IMG/VR virus record: IMGVR_UViG_3300012685_000001
Coordinates: 1 to 64,000 of that record
Strand: one strand, 5' to 3'
Source: a virus
DNA: 64,000 nucleotides
Shown: positions 41,514 to 52,747 of the stretch, piece after piece
Layout: every line of letters starts with the position of its first letter
Numbering within the stretch: position 1 is the stretch's first letter
Program-made: the position numbers and the translations under genes
The notes under the pieces: generated by a model
What the model was told of the DNA's origin: nothing
What the model saw: the letters and a program-made list of their open reading frames with translations, nothing else
The model's database searches: none

Positions 41514-41701
41514 CAGTAAACAGCCTTTCCGCACCACGTGCATTGTGTAGCCAGTCCTGGAGGTTTATCATGTAAATTTAACCGATGTCGTATTTTTCTG
41601 GTAAATACATAAACTCGGAACCATAACCAATAGGTCCAACTAATTGGATCAGCTTCGTCACCAGACCATGGGCACTTAATCCCTAATACTGTAGGAGTCA
41701 T
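41513..41701 (-). CDS. Hypothetical protein with CxxC
   Basis: TGATG-coupled ORF. Confidence 0.55.
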   Translation of the reverse strand: MTPTVLGIKCPWSGDEADPISWTYWLWFRVYVFTRKIRHRLNLHDKPPGLATQCTWCGKAVY

Positions 41702-42759
41702 CAGTAGATCTTTCCCTCATAGCGGAAGGTTCCATTGTTCTGGCCAAGTACAAGTTCAGTGTAATTCTGTCCTGCCTCGCGGGTAATAACTACAATACCC
41801 TTGGACCAGTTGGGAGAGGTTCCCTTGATGTAGCCACCATTGGATTCCATCGCCTTCTCAAAATCCATGATACAGCCAGCATTCACATATACATGCTGGG
41901 TACCCTTACCTTCATACCCGATGAACACTGGACGCAAAGCAGCCTGATGAACATGTCCCGCAAGAATAGACTTGCCTGTACGCATAACATGCTCAGTACC
42001 CTTGATGACGTGAGTCTTGGAAGTCAATTCCCACTGATGTCCATGACCAAGCAAATAATCAGGAAGAAACTCAAATACCTTGTGCTGATAGTTGATATCC
42101 AGGCTATCAAGCTCATACATGACCTCAGGAGTCAATGCACGGAGTGTGGCAAGACCAGGCAGACGGGTTTCAACTGCCCTTGTAATCCAGTGCATATGAT
42201 TGGAATGCGCCATATGAATAGTTGCATTGGGAGCAGCTTCCCGAATACGGGTCAGCCACTGAACAGTCTCATCAATCTGAGCCTGAAGATTGGACTCGTA
42301 CTCTTCCTTCATACCCTTGGCCCAACGGCCGACAGCACTGTTGTCACTCTCGTCTCCAGTCAGACAGATCATATCCGGCTGCTGATCACGAACAAACTCT
42401 ACTGTCTTGGCAAGGAACGCAGGATCATGCTTATTGATCTGGAAATCTCCGAAAGCAATAACTCGCTGATCCTTCTTCTCAGCCTTCAAAGTAGCGGCAG
42501 GCTTGGAGCCATATACATTCATGGCATGCTGATGACTCTTTACTATATTGGCTACGGAAACTTCTGCCAAAGTTGCCTGTACAGGCTTGTTCTTGTCCCG
42601 CCAGGTACGAATGAGTTTCTCGGATACGAGGAAACCCTTCTCAATAAGACGTGCCTTGACTGATAGACGGCCAAGACTTGAATCACTCAGAATATTATAA
42701 ATCTCCTGGTCAATCTTGGCCCAGACTTCAAGTTCTGTAATACTCACTACAGAATGCAA
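41701..42759 (-). CDS. Calcineurin-like metallophosphoesterase
   Basis: GDFQ, GDESD, SNH, HGH, GHVH motifs. Confidence 0.85.
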   Translation of the reverse strand: MHSVVSITELEVWAKIDQEIYNILSDSSLGRLSVKARLIEKGFLVSEKLIRTWRDKNKPVQATLAEVSVANIVKSHQHAMNVYGSKPAATLKAEKKDQRVIAFGDFQINKHDPAFLAKTVEFVRDQQPDMICLTGDESDNSAVGRWAKGMKEEYESNLQAQIDETVQWLTRIREAAPNATIHMAHSNHMHWITRAVETRLPGLATLRALTPEVMYELDSLDINYQHKVFEFLPDYLLGHGHQWELTSKTHVIKGTEHVMRTGKSILAGHVHQAALRPVFIGYEGKGTQHVYVNAGCIMDFEKAMESNGGYIKGTSPNWSKGIVVITREAGQNYTELVLGQNNGTFRYEGKIY

Positions 42760-42824
42760 CGTTCCTCCTCCAATAGTAAGACCCGCATAATGCAGTACAT
42801 CCTACACTATGCGGGTCCTCGTGT

Positions 42825-43298
42825 CTACTTCTTGCTGGCTATAAGCTGTACTAGCGCTATTGCTATAGGGATCATAACCATAGACAACAACCATCTGAAC
42901 TGATCCTGCCTAGAAGCTATATAAGACTTGTGCTGTGTCTCTCTAGCCGCAGTTTCACGATTGATTGCTGCCTCATAACGCTCACGTTCAACGGTTATAT
43001 CATGTCTCAGTCCTTGAAGCGCTTCCCTCAGTTCAGCCTTTAAGGCTAAAAGATCATCTTCCCCGTCTTCAAGTTTTTCATTTAAATTACTGAAACGTAA
43101 TTCTAATGAACGCTTATCAGCATCGTATTCAATTAAAGTTAGTAGTTTGTCCAAGCGGCTGGAAAAGTCAATAAGCCGAGTTTCAACATTTCGCTGCAAA
43201 CCGTCTAGTTCTCTCTGTACCGCCCCGGACCATGTAGGTGTTTCTGGTGTTGGCATCAACAACTCACTTGGGGCTAGATTCGAAAAGGACAACAGCAA
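42825..43298 (-). CDS. Coiled-coil protein with C-terminal membrane anchor
   Basis: Heptad-rich body and hydrophobic C-terminus; start uncertain. Confidence 0.55.
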   Translation of the reverse strand: MLLSFSNLAPSELLMPTPETPTWSGAVQRELDGLQRNVETRLIDFSSRLDKLLTLIEYDADKRSLELRFSNLNEKLEDGEDDLLALKAELREALQGLRHDITVERERYEAAINRETAARETQHKSYIASRQDQFRWLLSMVMIPIAIALVQLIASKK

Positions 43299-43423
43299 AA
43301 GACCATGTCATCCATTCAATTCTCCAAATTTCCTGCCCCAAATGTACTATGAGAAGAGGTCTAGTGCTATTACTCCTTAAGGATAACATTAGACCTCTTC
43401 TGTTTCATGTATACAGAAAGTAA

Positions 43424-44479
43424 TTACTCTGCCTCAGGCTTTACCAGATCATACACCTTGGAAGTAATGTCCTTGTCATCAAGGATCATGAACATGAAAC
43501 CAGGGTACTGTGTGTCCTTCACTCTAATAGCAAAATCCTTTCTGGTCCAGCCGTCTGGGTACTTGAAACTATTCCACATATCCAATTTTACTAGCCAATA
43601 ATCGTGCTCAATATTATTTCGAGTAATCCTGAAATCAATGGATATCTCTGAATATGTATCCTTCAGCCAGTCATGCCACTCATCAGGAATGATGCTACAC
43701 ATCTGCTCAAGCGTCTTGCCTGCCTTTATGTTCTCCCAGACACGACGCTTCGTCAAACCGGTAACGATCTTGTGCAGAGCAATATAGTCAGCCTGCTTGA
43801 TCTTCAATCGGTACTCATTGTGCGGAAACGATACTACGTAGCCCTCAGCGTTCACCCTTTGCGGAGCCTCCAGAGCCTCTCTGAGCGTCTTATAGCGGAA
43901 GGTAGTAGTCCTGGGCCCCCGCCACTCTACAAGGCCCTCAGGAGGAAGCGTATAACCTTCCTCGATATCCCGGGCACCCAATAGAACCAGATCATCGAAA
44001 CCGTAGTTCAGAACGATACGGTTCTCTGGATAGATGATCTCAAACATATAAGTGAGATCAATACCAGCATCCTCTATGAACTTCTTATAACGGCTCTTCA
44101 GAAGATACGTGGCGTGAATTGCTTGATCCGAAGCAAAGGAACCTCGGGTAGCAATTCCCCAGTCTGCCTTGTACTCCCAGTAGATACCAAGAGAACCGTC
44201 CATCTTATCGGTAATAGTCGCAGGAGAATCAAGATACTGATTGTCCTCATCAGAATAGTTGTGGAACTTGTCGAATGGCCGCGCAATTACCTTGTCGTGA
44301 GAATTCACAATAAGACCACGGCACTGAGATGTTACATCATTCCACAGATTGTCATACTGAGCTTTCTCTGTATAGTTCAGGATAGAAAGATCATGGTAAG
44401 GATGAGTCTGCTCACGTACGTAACCTTCAGTCTTCAATTCCAAGTAGTCTTTGATCGAGAACAGATCATACAGATACAT
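43424..44479 (-). CDS. RNA ligase, T4 Rnl1 family
   Basis: CRGLI, ARPFDKFHN, KMDGSL adenylation motif, ATRGSF, FEIIYP.NRIV, EGYV, KIK..DY. Confidence 0.92.
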   Translation of the reverse strand: MYLYDLFSIKDYLELKTEGYVREQTHPYHDLSILNYTEKAQYDNLWNDVTSQCRGLIVNSHDKVIARPFDKFHNYSDEDNQYLDSPATITDKMDGSLGIYWEYKADWGIATRGSFASDQAIHATYLLKSRYKKFIEDAGIDLTYMFEIIYPENRIVLNYGFDDLVLLGARDIEEGYTLPPEGLVEWRGPRTTTFRYKTLREALEAPQRVNAEGYVVSFPHNEYRLKIKQADYIALHKIVTGLTKRRVWENIKAGKTLEQMCSIIPDEWHDWLKDTYSEISIDFRITRNNIEHDYWLVKLDMWNSFKYPDGWTRKDFAIRVKDTQYPGFMFMILDDKDITSKVYDLVKPEAE

Positions 44480-50277: not shown

Positions 50278-51858
50278 TTACTTTGCAACCCAAGGCCACG
50301 TCTGTGATATTCCAGCTTCTATCAAAGGAATCATCTGGAAACCCTTGTCAGTCAGTCCACCAAAGGTGTGACGCTTCTTGGAACCAGATTCACTCTGGCC
50401 AACAGCATACCCTCCGAGGTTCCAGGTGTAGACAGGAACATTAGCAGGTACAGAAGCAACAGGATCTCCACCGTAACCATTGTACTGCTCATCAGTGATG
50501 ATCACAATACGGTCATGGTTCTTGAAGTTGCCGTTGACTGCTCCACGGGTATCAGTTCCACCCATGCTCTTGAACTTACTCAGCATAGGAAGAACAGACT
50601 GACCCTTACGGAAAGAAACTGTTTCGAAAGAAGGTCCACGCCATGCGTCACCAAACTGTACCAGATCTGCATTTTCAGCACGAAGTGCTAGTGCTGAACC
50701 AAAGATAGCAGCCGTGTCAGCTCTGTCAAGTCCCTGAGTTCCTCCGTTAGAAGTAAACATGGAACCAGAACGGTCAACCAGAACCAGTGTACGTCCCTTC
50801 AGAGAAGGCACATTGCTCAGAGAAGCCTCAAGGGCAGTCTCAAGCGCCGCAGCGATCTGAAGAGTATCCTTGTTGGCCTGGTAAGCAGCAAGGAATCGGA
50901 AAGGGAACTGCTTACTCTTGGCAACCTGCGCAGGATCAGCAAGTTTTGCAAGAACATTCTGCATCACTGGGACACTAATTCGGGCATCCTGGAAGTTCCG
51001 CAAGTTTCGAAGAAGTGCCATATATCCCATGGAAGGAATAACAGCTTCCCAGGCAACAGCATCCATAGGACCCTGAAGCCATCCGGAAAGAGCTTCCCAA
51101 GTCATTCCAGCATTCTTCATACGAGTAGCGTCCAGAAGGCCAGTAACTATTGCGCCCTTACGGTTTTCTACTGGAATACGCATTATATACTTTCGCGTAT
51201 TAATCATCTCTAGTACGCCTGGAACAATCTCTACATTTCCATAACGACTAGCAAGAGCGTACTTGAACAACTGCTCCTGAATCTCGTTATCAGGCTTAGG
51301 GTGAGTCAACTGAAGAACATCCGCGAAACGGTATCCCACAGAAGTATCGTACTTAAGAAGACTGTACTCGTTATACAACTTCTTGGCACCATCCGCAACA
51401 CCCTTCTTAAGGAAGGATGGGAAGTTCTTCCCGTACTTGGACTCGTAATAAGCCAGCACCTCACCAGGCTCATCAGCACGAGCCATAGAAGCGGCTACAA
51501 GGCCCCTAGGAGTCCCATTCAGCTGTCCTGAGTCCCAAAGGGCCTTGGCACCTTCTACACCCGCTACAATCGCCGCTGAACGCATGAAGGCAGAGTTACG
51601 AAGCCAATAGACGAAACCGGCAAACCAGAATGAATTAGTTACCGCTACTTCGGCACACAACTTGGAGAAACGGTCATCACGGCTCTTGGCGTTCTCATAG
51701 AACGTATCCTGACCGACAAAGTTGGAAACTGCTAGCAAGAACAACTCAGATTGCTTAGTGCGCACAAAACCTGCCTTGAAGTCAGCATTCAGTGCTGCCT
51801 GAGTAGTCTTGACAGGAGAAGTAGTTCCTGTCTTCTTTACCTGATTGAACTTGCCCAT
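50278..51858 (-). CDS. rsr: Ro60 / TROVE-domain RNA-binding protein with C-terminal vWA domain
   Basis: ELFLLAV..TFYE, RADEP, DVLQL.HPKP, TWEAL, MGYMALLRNLRN, SKQFPFRF, MIDAS DRSGSM, GGT, IITDEQ. Confidence 0.93.
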   Translation of the reverse strand: MGKFNQVKKTGTTSPVKTTQAALNADFKAGFVRTKQSELFLLAVSNFVGQDTFYENAKSRDDRFSKLCAEVAVTNSFWFAGFVYWLRNSAFMRSAAIVAGVEGAKALWDSGQLNGTPRGLVAASMARADEPGEVLAYYESKYGKNFPSFLKKGVADGAKKLYNEYSLLKYDTSVGYRFADVLQLTHPKPDNEIQEQLFKYALASRYGNVEIVPGVLEMINTRKYIMRIPVENRKGAIVTGLLDATRMKNAGMTWEALSGWLQGPMDAVAWEAVIPSMGYMALLRNLRNFQDARISVPVMQNVLAKLADPAQVAKSKQFPFRFLAAYQANKDTLQIAAALETALEASLSNVPSLKGRTLVLVDRSGSMFTSNGGTQGLDRADTAAIFGSALALRAENADLVQFGDAWRGPSFETVSFRKGQSVLPMLSKFKSMGGTDTRGAVNGNFKNHDRIVIITDEQYNGYGGDPVASVPANVPVYTWNLGGYAVGQSESGSKKRHTFGGLTDKGFQMIPLIEAGISQTWPWVAK

Positions 51859-51860
51859 TC

Positions 51861-52064
51861 CTATTCTCCTATTTTCTCGAAGCGCTGCATACGCTTGCCA
51901 TCACGTTCTACATACTCAACAAACTCATCCAAGGGACGCACTGAAATAATACCTTCTCCGTATTGCGCTGCATAAACTACCACATCTCTCCAGGAGCCAC
52001 TTTCCTTTGCAAGGAACAGGACTCTATAAAGATTTCCCTTAAAATGTCTGTACAGCCCATGCAT
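51861..52064 (-). CDS. DUF1653-like SH3-fold protein
   Basis: G.YRHFKG..Y.V, VVVY, VRP..EF, RF. Confidence 0.85.
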   Translation of the reverse strand: MHGLYRHFKGNLYRVLFLAKESGSWRDVVVYAAQYGEGIISVRPLDEFVEYVERDGKRMQRFEKIGE

Positions 52065-52149
52065 TGTACCTCCTATTTGTAGTACGTTATAAAGACAAAA
52101 ATAATCCCCTAAAGTGCACTTTCGTGGACCTAGGGGAGGATTAAAAATA

Positions 52150-52258
52150 AGTTCCTAGAAAAAACGGTGTGAGGTATATAGGCGCCGTGCCTTAAGGGGA
52201 CTCGAACCCCATGGGTTTCATATCAATTGAAGTAACCCCGTACCTTCGCATCGGAACT
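52150..52258 (-). ncRNA. Y RNA-like gene C (Ro-binding stem plus isolated T arm)
   Basis: Shared CGATGCGAAG..GTTACTTCA and TTTCTAG terminal stem; internal GGGG-TTCGAGT-CCCC. Confidence 0.75.
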
Positions 52259-52266
52259 AAAAAATA

Positions 52267-52341
52267 TACCCTAGAAAAAACGCCTACAGTGCTTTTTGAT
52301 TACCAATTAATTTGAAGTAACTGTTGGCTACGCATCGGGTA
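52267..52341 (-). ncRNA. Y RNA-like gene B (Ro-binding stem only)
   Basis: CGATGCGTAG..GTTACTTCA and TTTCTAG stem closed by short AU-rich loop. Confidence 0.72.
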
Positions 52342-52359
52342 AAGCTTATTAAATTTTAA

Positions 52360-52500
52360 GACAACTAGAAAGAATCGATAAAAGTGCTTTATATACCGCT
52401 GCTCTGCCTCTGAGCTATCAACCATAGAATTGGCTGAGAAGGATTCGAACCTTCGTCACGCGGTTCCCTGTGAAGTAACTCTTATCTTCGCATCGCTGTC
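52360..52500 (-). ncRNA. yrlA: YrlA-type Y RNA A (Ro-binding stem plus full permuted tRNA-like domain)
   Basis: Terminal stem; ACCGC..T arm GAAGG-TTCGAAT-CCTTC; closed acceptor TCAGCCA/TGGTTGA; D arm TAGCTCAGAGGCAGAGC; GCGGT; next to Ro60. Confidence 0.85.
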
Positions 52501-52568
52501 AAACTTAATAGATCTAGGCTCGGTTTCGACGTATCGCAAGATACCCTTGACAGCGTTCAAGATCTAAG

Positions 52569-52640
52569 CTCCCCGAGCTGGATTCGAACCAACAACCGGT
52601 CGATTAACAGTCGACTGCTCTGCCGTTGAGCTATCGGGGA
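52569..52640 (-). tRNA. tRNA-Asn(GTT)
   Basis: GTCGA-CT-GTT-AA-TCGAC. Confidence 0.92.
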
Positions 52641-52676
52641 ATAAACTCTATCCACAAGGAATAGAGTGGGTTAAAG

Positions 52677-52747
52677 CATGAGCTAGAGGATTTGAACCCC
52701 TGATGGCGGTTTTGGAGACCGACGTGTTACCACTACACTAAGCTCAT
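52677..52747 (-). tRNA. tRNA-Trp(CCA)
   Basis: CGGT-CT-CCA-AA-ACCG. Confidence 0.9.

What the first reader, a model, noticed from the sequence alone, without database searches (positions are those of the whole stretch)
52150..52500. Three tandem Y RNAs forming a modular series: full tRNA mimic, stem only, T-arm only
All three share CGATGCG(A/T)AG-N6/7-GTTACTTCA at the 5' end and CG..TTTCTAG at the 3' end. Their helices differ in sequence but keep pairing (GACAGC/GTTGTC, TACCC/GGGTA, AGTTCC/GGAACT; inner GATAAGAGT/ACTTTTATC versus GCCAACAGT/ACTGTAGGC), which is internal covariation. The effector modules differ in size (141, 75 and 109 nt overall). Inference: one Ro60 is programmed by three interchangeable adaptor RNAs into distinct RNPs, with the minimal one perhaps a gate or a sponge for host Ro60.
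Basis: partly seen in the sequence, partly recalled or inferred. Interest (0 to 1): 0.87.

Follow-up and report, generated by a model that had tools for sequence, protein, structure and literature searches.

The report
Phage Y-RNA trio beside Ro60 gene
Three small structured RNA genes sit in a row just upstream of a soil phage's Ro60 gene; by sequence and fold they are Y RNAs, the known RNA partners of Ro60, so this is an unannotated example of a known system and not a new kind of one.

Summary
On the minus strand, between tRNA-Asn and a TROVE/vWA Ro60 gene (50278-51858), lie three units (52360-52500, 52266-52342, 52150-52258). Each has a unit-specific closing helix, the constant 5' block GAUGCGWAG-N6/7-UUACUUC, an inner helix and a constant 3' UUUCUAG. 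The 5' pattern occurs three times in 64 kb; none is expected by chance.

A covariance model built only from the short unit and its orthologues finds the other two with exact ends, and nothing else in the 113-kb genome. In BRock-like Streptomyces phages and IMG/VR relatives the same slot holds 3-5 such units. Both helices covary strongly.

Unit A has a YrlA-type permuted tRNA-like module. Unit C is a reduced version of a second such module that is complete in relatives. Unit B is the core plus a conserved loop.

Streptomyces chromosomal rsr loci carry 1-3 units of the same build. Chen et al. 2014 already described several Y RNAs per locus (tRNA mimic, hairpin, T-arm form) and phage YrlAs; phiLo (2025) has two Ro60-binding Yrls. 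This scan has noted similar phage arrays on other DNA.

Verdict: new member of a known kind. Expression, Ro60 binding and the adaptor or sponge idea remain untested.

The parts
52360..52500 (-). Y RNA unit A (141 nt), YrlA type. Closing helix 52495-52500 with 52360-52365. Ro motif GAUGCGAAG at 52486-52494. Inner helix 52478-52486 with 52377-52385. UACUUC at 52472-52477. Permuted tRNA-like module at 52395-52464, made of T arm 52438-52454, 7-bp 'acceptor-like' stem-loop 52418-52437 and D arm 52401-52415.
   Evidence: Sequence. Rfam YrlA local match 52397-52462, 31.4 bits, E 9e-5. R1 match E 4.4e-6. Consensus fold of 9 orthologues has 39 pairs, 20 of them with compensatory changes.
52266..52342 (-). 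Y RNA unit B (75-77 nt), the minimal form. It has the closing helix, Ro motif GAUGCGUAG at 52328-52336, inner helix 52320-52328 with 52282-52290, UACUUC, and a 22-nt A/U-rich loop with a conserved UGG..A.
   Evidence: Alignment of 9 orthologues. Model R1 scores 90.8 bits. Consensus fold.
52150..52258 (-). Y RNA unit C (109 nt). Closing helix, Ro motif GAUGCGAAG at 52244-52252, inner helix with a 2x2 mismatch, T arm GGGG-UUCGAGU-CCCC at 52196-52210, and a short GC hairpin at 52181-52191. It is a reduced derivative of a second full tRNA-like module that is present in BRock, pSt2308, GiJojo and Alone3.
   Evidence: R1 match E 8.6e-8 with exact ends. Alignment and fold of 8 orthologues.
52095..52137 (-). 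Hairpin (52105-52137) followed by a U-run. This is the likely intrinsic terminator closing the tRNA plus Y-RNA transcription unit.
   Evidence: Fold -16.9 kcal/mol, z -2.7. A GC hairpin with a U-run sits at the same place after the last unit in every relative.
50278..51858 (-). Ro60/Rsr orthologue (526 aa) with a TROVE domain and a vWA domain. This is the presumed protein partner of the three RNAs.
   Evidence: Pfam TROVE E 4.9e-17, VWA_2 25.1 bits. PHROG 850 RNA-binding protein E 4.9e-48. PDB phiLo Ro60 9KOP/9L5Y E 7.5e-22 and D. radiodurans Rsr 2NVO E 2.7e-5. 62-64% identical to the 'Ro-like RNA binding protein' of BRock-like Streptomyces phages.
51861..52064 (-). Small DUF1653 ORF (67 aa) lying between the RNA array and Ro60. 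It is not seen at this place in the relatives examined (L002, L005-L010).
   Evidence: Pfam DUF1653 E 9.9e-22. Relatives.
52568..52747 (-). tRNA-Trp (52676-52747) and tRNA-Asn (52568-52640) directly upstream on the same strand. They are part of a 28-tRNA array in which the Y RNAs are embedded.
   Evidence: ARAGORN and Rfam. The order tRNA-Trp, tRNA-Asn, Y units, Ro60, tRNA-Ala, tRNA-Lys is the same in BRock, pSt2308, GiJojo and Alone3.

Best explanation
The stretch encodes three paralogous Y RNAs of the actinobacterial YrlA/YrlB type.

Shown here:
- Each RNA has a constant Ro60-binding core. The core is a closing helix, an asymmetric internal loop with 5' GAUGCGWAG opposite a U-rich 3' strand ending in CUA, an inner helix, and an apical UACUUC.
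- Each core carries a different apical module. Unit A has a full permuted tRNA mimic. Unit B has a short conserved loop. Unit C has a T arm plus a remnant hairpin.
- The units sit beside a phage Ro60 gene.
- The build is conserved and covaries across phages and host chromosomes.

Inferred:
- The RNAs are transcribed with the upstream tRNAs as one precursor that ends at the hairpin/U-run at about 52100.
- They are cut out at the short A/U-rich spacers and trimmed back to the closing helix.
- Each binds the outer face of the phage Ro60 ring through the constant core.
- As in Deinococcus, Salmonella and Thermus phage phiLo, the variable module would then decide what the particle does. The tRNA-like module would tether Ro60 to a host partner such as PNPase, since the phage encodes no RNase PH-fold nuclease. 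The minimal RNA would mainly occupy or gate the ring.
- The setting is a 28-tRNA array with a T4 Rnl1-like RNA ligase and a phosphoesterase nearby. This suggests a role in quality control or turnover of tRNA-like and damaged structured RNAs during infection.

The confidence of 0.8 is for the identity as Ro60-partner Y RNAs. The mechanistic steps listed as inferred are less certain.
For: (1) Motif and architecture. The pattern gives three exact matches against zero expected. A model trained only on unit-B orthologues finds A and C with exact ends and nothing else in the genome.

(2) Ro60 linkage.
- A TROVE/vWA gene lies 292 nt downstream of unit C on the same strand.
- Units of this build also sit next to Ro60 in L002, L005, L006, BRock, pSt2308, GiJojo and Alone3, with 3-5 units each.
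- The same holds in the distant L004 (48% Ro60 identity), L090 (4 units, then a Ro60 N-terminus at the contig end), Arthrobacter phage Atuin and Gordonia phage VanLee.
- L044 and L053 carry units, and a TROVE gene is found elsewhere on the same contig; their adjacency was not examined.
- It also holds upstream of chromosomal rsr in five of the six actinobacterial rsr loci fetched: three Streptomyces, one Mycobacteriales MAG and, by motif reading only, one Actinomycetota MAG. In the sixth locus, L137, a motif-bearing unit was seen only by eye.

(3) Covariation.
- On 31 model-aligned units, 87.5% of cells pair against about 40% in slid registers, and 12 of 15 pairs show double changes.
- An anchor-only test that uses no structure gives 92.9% pairing for the closing helix of 35 units against 29-39% when shifted. 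None of 2000 shuffles reached the observed value.
- MAFFT-based consensus folds show compensatory pairs in every helix.
- One inner-helix position is G.U in 14 sequences. That fits RNA on this strand and not a DNA palindrome.

(4) Family link.
- Unit A matches the T arm, AS stem and D arm of Rfam YrlA.
- In L004 the whole YrlA model aligns, placing the UGCGNAG block on the model's GGCGAA and UACUUC near its CUAC.
- Chen et al. 2014 (PMC4201824) define GNCGAAN0-1G and YUAY as the conserved elements of YrlA RNAs, the GNCGAA motif being shared with YrlB, and report several Y RNAs per locus.
- phiLo Ro60 is the closest solved relative of this protein. It binds two upstream Yrl RNAs that carry a CGAA loop, and it forms a complex with host PNPase (PMC12135203).

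(5) Transcription context. The tRNAs lie directly upstream on the same strand, and a conserved terminator follows the last unit. No RNase PH fold or RtcB is encoded in the phage.
Against: - There is no expression, end-mapping or binding datum for any of the three RNAs.
- The units score below the Rfam YrlA gathering threshold: 31.4 bits against 69 for unit A, and no match for B and C.
- The motif departs from the published consensus at its first position (U instead of G). Unit B has U where the consensus has A.
- Single-sequence folding energies are not significantly better than shuffles (z -1.7, -1.0, -0.3).
- The choice of effector (PNPase) and the division of labour among the three RNAs are borrowed from other systems.
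Confidence: 0.8

Rival explanations
1. The RNAs are real, but they act mainly as decoys and not as adaptors of the phage Ro60. They might soak up host Rsr, whose own Y RNAs share the same core. Or their tRNA-like modules might distract host tRNA-targeting enzymes while the phage tRNA set is expressed.
For: Streptomyces chromosomal Y units share the core motif and are found by the phage-derived model at E 1e-8 to 1e-11, so cross-binding is plausible. The array sits in a tRNA cluster with an Rnl1-like ligase nearby, the classic answer to anticodon nucleases.
Against: Every array examined is linked to a phage-encoded Ro60 gene. A pure decoy of host proteins would not need that gene. No test of binding to host proteins was possible.
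Confidence: 0.12
2. The units are cis-acting elements of the DUF1653-Ro60 transcript. They would be leader structures through which Ro60 regulates its own synthesis, or processing signals, and not stable trans-acting RNAs.
For: They lie upstream of Ro60 on the same strand. In M. smegmatis the Y RNAs are processed from a precursor encoded upstream of rsr (PMC4201824).
Against: A hairpin with a U-run separates the array from the Ro60 gene in all relatives. Atuin has one unit downstream of Ro60. Each unit closes on itself with its own covarying terminal helix, as free RNAs do.
Confidence: 0.06
3. The units are decaying tRNA-derived remnants or repeat elements of the tRNA array, with no Ro60-related function.
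For: They sit in a tRNA array and contain tRNA arms. ARAGORN even calls tRNAs inside orthologous units of GiJojo, Alone3 and L004.
Against: The constant blocks are kept and the helices covary across phages whose Ro60 proteins are only 41-64% identical, and across host chromosomes. Neither ARAGORN nor the Rfam tRNA model calls a tRNA at 52150-52500.
Confidence: 0.03

Closest known systems
YrlA / YrlB Y RNAs of bacteria and mycobacteriophages (Chen et al. 2014, PMC4201824; Rfam RF02553)
   Same: - Encoded next to Ro60/Rsr and on the same strand.
- A 5'/3' stem with the GNCGAA-type motif and a YUAY element.
- One RNA with a permuted tRNA-like module (T arm, acceptor-like stem, D arm), accompanied by shorter Y RNAs, including hairpin-type and T-arm-bearing forms.
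- In D. radiodurans the Y RNAs are co-transcribed with a tRNA.
   Different: - Here and in close relatives the set is expanded to 3-5 tandem units inside a phage tRNA array.
- The motif reads UGCG(A/U)AG, with U in place of the first G.
- The 3' strand (UUUCUAG) is also conserved, whereas only the 5' strand was recognisable in the Salmonella and M. smegmatis RNAs.
- All units score below Rfam's threshold, and units B and C are invisible to it.
Thermus phage phiLo Ro60 with Yrl1 and Yrl2 (NAR 2025, PMC12135203; PDB 9KOP, 9L5Y)
   Same: A phage-encoded Ro60 that is the best solved-structure match of this protein (E 7.5e-22). Two Y-like RNAs lie upstream, with a stem, an internal loop carrying CGAA, and a second stem. 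Binding to the phage Ro60 and a ternary complex with host PNPase were shown in vitro.
   Different: Model R1 finds no unit in the phiLo locus, and the upstream sequence shows no UACUUC-type build. phiLo has two RNAs, and they are not embedded in a tRNA array.
Streptomyces and other actinobacterial chromosomal rsr loci (L137-L142)
   Same: One to three units with the same core (GGUGCG(A/C)AG ... YUACUUC ... GAUCUCGG) lie directly upstream of rsr. They are again a mix of short, T-arm and full tRNA-like forms. Their Ro60 proteins are 47-51% identical to the phage protein.
   Different: They are high in G+C, not embedded in tRNA arrays, and have fewer units. The 3' strand reads GAUCUCGG where the phage has UUUCUAG.
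Metazoan Y RNAs (Rfam RF00019)
   Same: A terminal stem that holds the Ro60 site, with variable apical modules. Several paralogues occur per genome.
   Different: There was no match to RF00019 at E up to 10. Metazoan Y RNAs have no tRNA-like module.

Membership tests
Bacterial/phage Y RNA, YrlA class (RF02553) | Encoded within a few kb of a Ro60/TROVE gene, on the same strand | tested here: met
   The units at 52150-52500 (-) lie 292-642 nt upstream of the TROVE/vWA ORF at 50278-51858 (-).
Bacterial/phage Y RNA, YrlA class (RF02553) | 5' motif GNCGAAN0-1G, followed by a conserved YUAY | tested here: met
   Units A and C read UGCGAAG and unit B reads UGCGUAG. Each is followed after 6-7 nt by UUAC. 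The first position is U, not G, and unit B departs at a second position, so the match is to a lineage variant. The correspondence to the Rfam consensus is shown by the full-length alignment of L004 units.
Bacterial/phage Y RNA, YrlA class (RF02553) | Stem formed by the 5' and 3' ends | tested here: met
   The closing helix is 5-6 bp in all three units. It is 92.9% paired over 35 units against 29-39% in shifted registers, and each of its variable positions takes several different Watson-Crick pair types.
Bacterial/phage Y RNA, YrlA class (RF02553) | Permuted tRNA-like module (T arm, acceptor-like stem, D arm) | tested here: met
   Met for unit A only: Rfam YrlA positions 23-85 match, E 9e-5, and all arms covary in orthologues. 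Unit C keeps only the T arm. Unit B has none.
Bacterial/phage Y RNA, YrlA class (RF02553) | Score at or above Rfam's gathering threshold (69 bits) | tested here: not met
   Unit A scores 31.4 bits as a local match. Units B and C have no match. The best relative, in L004, reaches 54.8 bits. The model is trained mostly on other lineages.
Bacterial/phage Y RNA, YrlA class (RF02553) | Accumulates as a stable small RNA and is bound by Ro60 | not testable with these tools
   No RNA run holds this DNA. There is no RNA-protein docking tool.
Hairpin-type Y RNA (YrlB, Yrn2) | [quoted passage not shown] | tested here: inconclusive
   Unit B has the motif and two covarying helices. Its loop is about 30 nt and A/U-rich, with a conserved UGG..A, so it is not a small pyrimidine-rich loop.
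Ro60 / Rsr protein | TROVE (HEAT-repeat ring) domain followed by a vWA domain | tested here: met
   TROVE scores 62.7 bits against a cut-off of 23. VWA_2 scores 25.1 bits, just under its cut-off of 27. Homology to phiLo Ro60 and D. radiodurans Rsr structures. NCBIfam Rsr equivalog scores 39.5 bits, far below its cut-off of 900, so the protein is not an Rsr equivalog.
tRNA genes | Cloverleaf in the normal order, recognised by tRNA finders | tested here: not met
   Neither ARAGORN nor Rfam RF00005 makes a call within 52150-52500.

The most novel reading that the evidence does not exclude
BRock-like phages carry an evolving toolkit of three to five Y RNA paralogues. These share one Ro60 handle but differ in their effector modules, and they gain, lose and strip down tRNA-like parts between lineages. 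On this reading each paralogue directs phage or host Ro60 to a different task during infection. One such task could be countering host tRNA-targeting defences, with the tRNA-like modules acting as decoys or as guides for clearing cleaved tRNAs. That would make the array a multiplexed RNP system and not a redundant set.
Probability: 0.12. Interest if true: 0.7.

Novelty: new member of a known kind. Interest (0 to 1): 0.38.

Why it matters
Y RNAs are poorly annotated. None of the three units here is reported by Rfam at its gathering thresholds, and units B and C match no Y-RNA family even at E up to 10. None of the 3-5 units in BRock, pSt2308, GiJojo or Alone3 is annotated as a Y RNA in GenBank. 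Two orthologous units are annotated there as tRNA-Arg and tRNA-Ser, probably wrongly.

The conserved core defined here is GAUGCGWAG, an inner helix, UACUUC and a 3' UUUCUAG, and model R1 captures it. It gives a simple way to find minimal Y RNAs that lack a tRNA-like module, in both actinophages and actinobacteria.

The cultured Streptomyces phages offer a tractable system to ask why a virus needs Ro60 and several Y RNAs. The module-reduction series of unit C gives natural variants for testing what the tRNA-like part does. The biology is an extension of a described system and is not a surprise to specialists.

Tried and rejected
- Expression: the look-up of sequencing runs listed no RNA holder. 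Only the probable source soil metagenome and small-share DNA runs were listed.
- Rfam at gathering thresholds finds only tRNAs in the window. Metazoan Y_RNA gives no match at E up to 10.
- Single-sequence folding z-scores are weak and were not used as support.
- The simple terminator scan missed the hairpin after unit C because its loop is longer than the scan allows. It was folded directly instead.
- A pattern scan of IMG/VR gave mostly single matches, which are expected by chance for 14 fixed bases. One four-match locus, L035, proved to be a protein repeat inside an ORF and was discarded.
- An apparent 'array without Ro60' in L090 was explained by the contig ending inside the Ro60 gene.
- The phiLo Yrl region shows no unit of this build.
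- Two reviews by Sim and Wolin (PMC10870794, PMC6047535) are not held in the library. I therefore could not check whether tandem arrays of more than two phage Y RNAs are discussed there.
- I noticed a resemblance of unit C's 5' part to human Y1 RNA from memory only. It was not pursued, because RF00019 did not match.

Full report
**Setting.** The window is part of a complete 113,467-bp virus record with direct terminal repeats. Its minus strand carries an array of 28 tRNA genes between about 44990 and 56092. The reported stretch lies inside this array. Reading the minus strand, the order is:
- tRNA-Trp (52676-52747) and tRNA-Asn (52568-52640)
- a 68-nt spacer
- the three reported units
- a hairpin with a U-run
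- a 67-aa DUF1653 ORF (51861-52064)
- a 526-aa ORF (50278-51858) with a TROVE domain (62.7 bits) and a vWA domain

The 526-aa protein matches PHROG 850 'RNA-binding protein'. It also matches the solved Ro60 of Thermus phage phiLo (E 7.5e-22) and D. radiodurans Rsr. It is 62-64% identical to the 'Ro-like RNA binding protein' of Streptomyces phages BRock, pSt2308, GiJojo, Alone3 and LuckySocke, whose genomes are 112-116 kb. The phage is therefore a BRock-like actinophage from soil, and it has a Ro60 gene.

**Check of the observation.**
- The units are 52360-52500 (A, 141 nt), 52266-52342 (B, 75-77 nt) and 52150-52258 (C, 109 nt).
- Each starts with a unit-specific 5-6-nt strand that pairs with its last 5-6 nt.
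- Next comes C-GAUGCG(A/U)AG, then the 5' strand of an inner helix, then (G)UUACUUCA, then a variable module.
- The unit ends with the 3' strand of the inner helix and CG-(U-rich)-UUUCUAG. The final G of that block is the first pair of the closing helix.
- The 5' pattern occurs exactly three times in 64 kb and never in 100 shuffles.

**Are the three units one family?** I aligned unit B with its eight orthologues (A1). From that alignment alone I built covariance model R1, giving it the two helices as structure. It finds no other place in the window or in the whole genome. The family is thus real and confined to this slot.

**Relatives.**
- The order tRNA-Trp, tRNA-Asn, gap, Ro60, tRNA-Ala, tRNA-Lys is conserved in BRock, pSt2308, GiJojo and Alone3. 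The 580-700-nt gap carries no Y-RNA annotation in any of them, and in GiJojo and Alone3 its only feature is one tRNA call, discussed below.
- Reading those gaps and four IMG/VR loci shows 3 units in the window and L002, 4 in BRock, and 5 in L005, L006, pSt2308, GiJojo and Alone3.
- Orthologous units keep their own closing-helix sequence across phages. GACAGC, for example, is found in all eight. The paralogues are therefore older than this phage group.
- The window lacks two unit types that relatives have: the 'GUGUC' type right after tRNA-Asn, and the 'GCGCC/AUGCC/GUACC' type.
- The same build also occurs next to more distant Ro60 genes:
  - L004 (48% identity; GGUGCGCAG ... UACUUC ... GAUCUCGG)
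  - L090 (four units, a terminator, then a Ro60 N-terminus cut by the contig end)
  - Arthrobacter phage Atuin, with one unit upstream and one downstream of Ro60
  - Gordonia phage VanLee
- L044 and L053 also carry units, with a TROVE gene elsewhere on the same contig; I did not check how close the two lie.
- It occurs directly upstream of chromosomal rsr in Streptomyces and other actinobacteria, with 1-3 units.

**Structure and covariation.**
- On the 31 model-aligned units, 87.5% of cells form pairs against 36-48% when the partner is slid by 1-3 columns. Twelve of 15 pairs show changes on both sides, and no shuffle reaches the observed covariation.
- That alignment is fitted to the model, so I repeated the test for the closing helix with sequence anchors only: GATGCG on the 5' side, and the last xCTAG before the next unit on the 3' side. 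Among 35 units, 92.9% of positions pair at register 0 against 29-39% at shifts of -4 to +4. None of 2000 partner shuffles reaches that value.
- MAFFT alignments of each unit type, folded with RNAalifold, show compensatory pairs in the closing helix, the inner helix and all arms of the tRNA-like module. The counts are 20 of 39 pairs for A, 10 of 21 for C and 6 of 19 for B.
- One inner-helix position is G.U in 14 sequences. That fits an RNA read from this strand.

**The three modules.**
- Unit A carries, in permuted order, a T arm (UUCGAAU loop), a 7-bp acceptor-like stem-loop and a D arm (AGCUCAGAGGCAGAGC), joined to the core by a 5-bp stem. Rfam YrlA matches this part (positions 23-85, E 9e-5).
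- Unit C has a canonical T arm and a short GC hairpin. Its orthologues form a series. BRock, pSt2308, GiJojo and Alone3 have a second complete T arm, acceptor-like stem and D arm. L005 and L006 have lost a recognisable D arm. The window and L002 have also lost the acceptor-like stem. 'T-arm only' is thus a reduced YrlA.
- Unit B is the core plus a loop of about 30 nt whose UGG..A is invariant even in L004. RNAalifold pairs it with part of UACUUC, but without covariation.

**Relation to what is known.**
- Chen et al. [quoted passage not shown]
- They found YrlA candidates next to Ro60 in 254 bacteria and 22 phages. [quoted passage not shown]
- They also report that D. radiodurans Yrn2, tRNA-Asp and Yrn1 share a precursor.
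- The full-length alignment of L004 units to the Rfam model places the UGCGNAG block on the model's GGCGAA.
- phiLo Ro60 binds two upstream Yrl RNAs that have a stem, a CGAA loop and a second stem. It forms a complex with host PNPase in vitro (PMC12135203).
- The present locus is therefore a member of this system. It differs in the lineage variant of the motif (U for the first G), in the conserved 3' strand, in expansion to 3-5 tandem units within a phage tRNA array, and in scoring below the Rfam threshold.
- Earlier notes of this scan describe similar phage Ro60 and Y-RNA arrays on other DNA.

**How it most likely works.**
- Shown: the conserved, covarying architecture and its linkage to Ro60.
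- Inferred: the array is transcribed together with the tRNAs. A strong promoter-like site lies at 53602-53574 on the minus strand, and tRNA-Asn lies 68 nt upstream. Transcription would end at the hairpin and U-run at 52095-52137, which has a counterpart in every relative.
- Inferred: the short A/U-rich spacers (7-18 nt) are cut and trimmed back to the closing helices. Each RNA then binds Ro60 through the constant core, and the apical module selects partners.
- The phage encodes no RNase PH-fold nuclease and no RtcB, so any nuclease partner would come from the host.
- A T4 Rnl1-like ligase (43424-44479) and a metallophosphoesterase (41701-42759) lie just beyond the tRNA array. This recalls the bacterial rsr-yrlBA-rtcBA linkage of Ro60 with RNA repair.

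**Verdict.** The identification as Y RNAs is supported. The functional programming and sponge ideas are untested. The case is a new, unannotated member of a known kind, of moderate interest.

Noticed in passing
L009:2269-2343 (GiJojo gene 29) and L010:2274-2347 (Alone3 gene 36); also L004:2578-2645 and 2818-2888: GenBank annotates tRNA-Arg(cct) and tRNA-Ser(gct) at places that begin at the Ro motif of a Y-RNA unit and run through its T arm. ARAGORN repeats these calls, but the Rfam tRNA model gave no match at the Alone3 site (L010); the GiJojo locus (L009) was not among the sources searched. They are probably mis-called Y RNAs.
   Followed up: partly
window 52501-52568 (-): The 68-nt spacer between tRNA-Asn and unit A folds into a hairpin. 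Its 7-bp closing stem shows one compensatory change between the window and L002 (U-A to C-G). It sits where relatives have an extra Y unit, and it ends in CUAG plus a closing strand but lacks the Ro motif. It may be a decayed or diverged fourth unit.
   Followed up: partly
L005:1563-1726, L007:4579-4742, L010:4467-4699: The manA RNA motif (RF01745) matches inside the tRNA arrays of relatives, once above the gathering score (57.1 against 55.2 bits). There is no such match in the window at gathering thresholds.
   Followed up: no
window 52066-52095 (-) and the same place in L002, L005-L010: Between the terminator after the last Y unit and the ribosome-binding site of the next gene, all relatives share an ACGTACCAC-like box (ACGTACTAC in the window). 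It may be a phage promoter or an operator for the Ro60 gene.
   Followed up: no
window 51861-52064 (-): A DUF1653 ORF (67 aa) is inserted between the Y-RNA array and Ro60 in this phage. It is absent from that position in L002 and L005-L010, where the intergenic sequence was read; the CDS table of BRock (L007) also lists no gene there. Domain match.
   Followed up: no
window 41701-44479 (-): A T4 Rnl1-family RNA ligase (43424-44479) and a metallophosphoesterase (41701-42759) lie just downstream of the tRNA array. This is a likely tRNA-repair pair. Streptomyces phage Kela has an RNA ligase gene directly upstream of its Ro60.
   Followed up: partly
L137-L142 (actinobacterial chromosomes): Chromosomal rsr genes 47-51% identical to the phage Ro60 are preceded by 1-3 Y units of the same core build, in a mix of short, T-arm and full tRNA-like forms. 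Phage-derived model R1 detects units in four of the six loci, at E from 1e-10 to 0.5; in L137 and L140 a unit was seen only by reading the motif. Loci.
   Followed up: partly
L035:6203-6886: Four evenly spaced matches to the Y-RNA 5' pattern turned out to be a repeated peptide (..SDAQ..DYFG..) inside a 568-aa ORF. This is a caution for pattern-only searches.
   Followed up: yes
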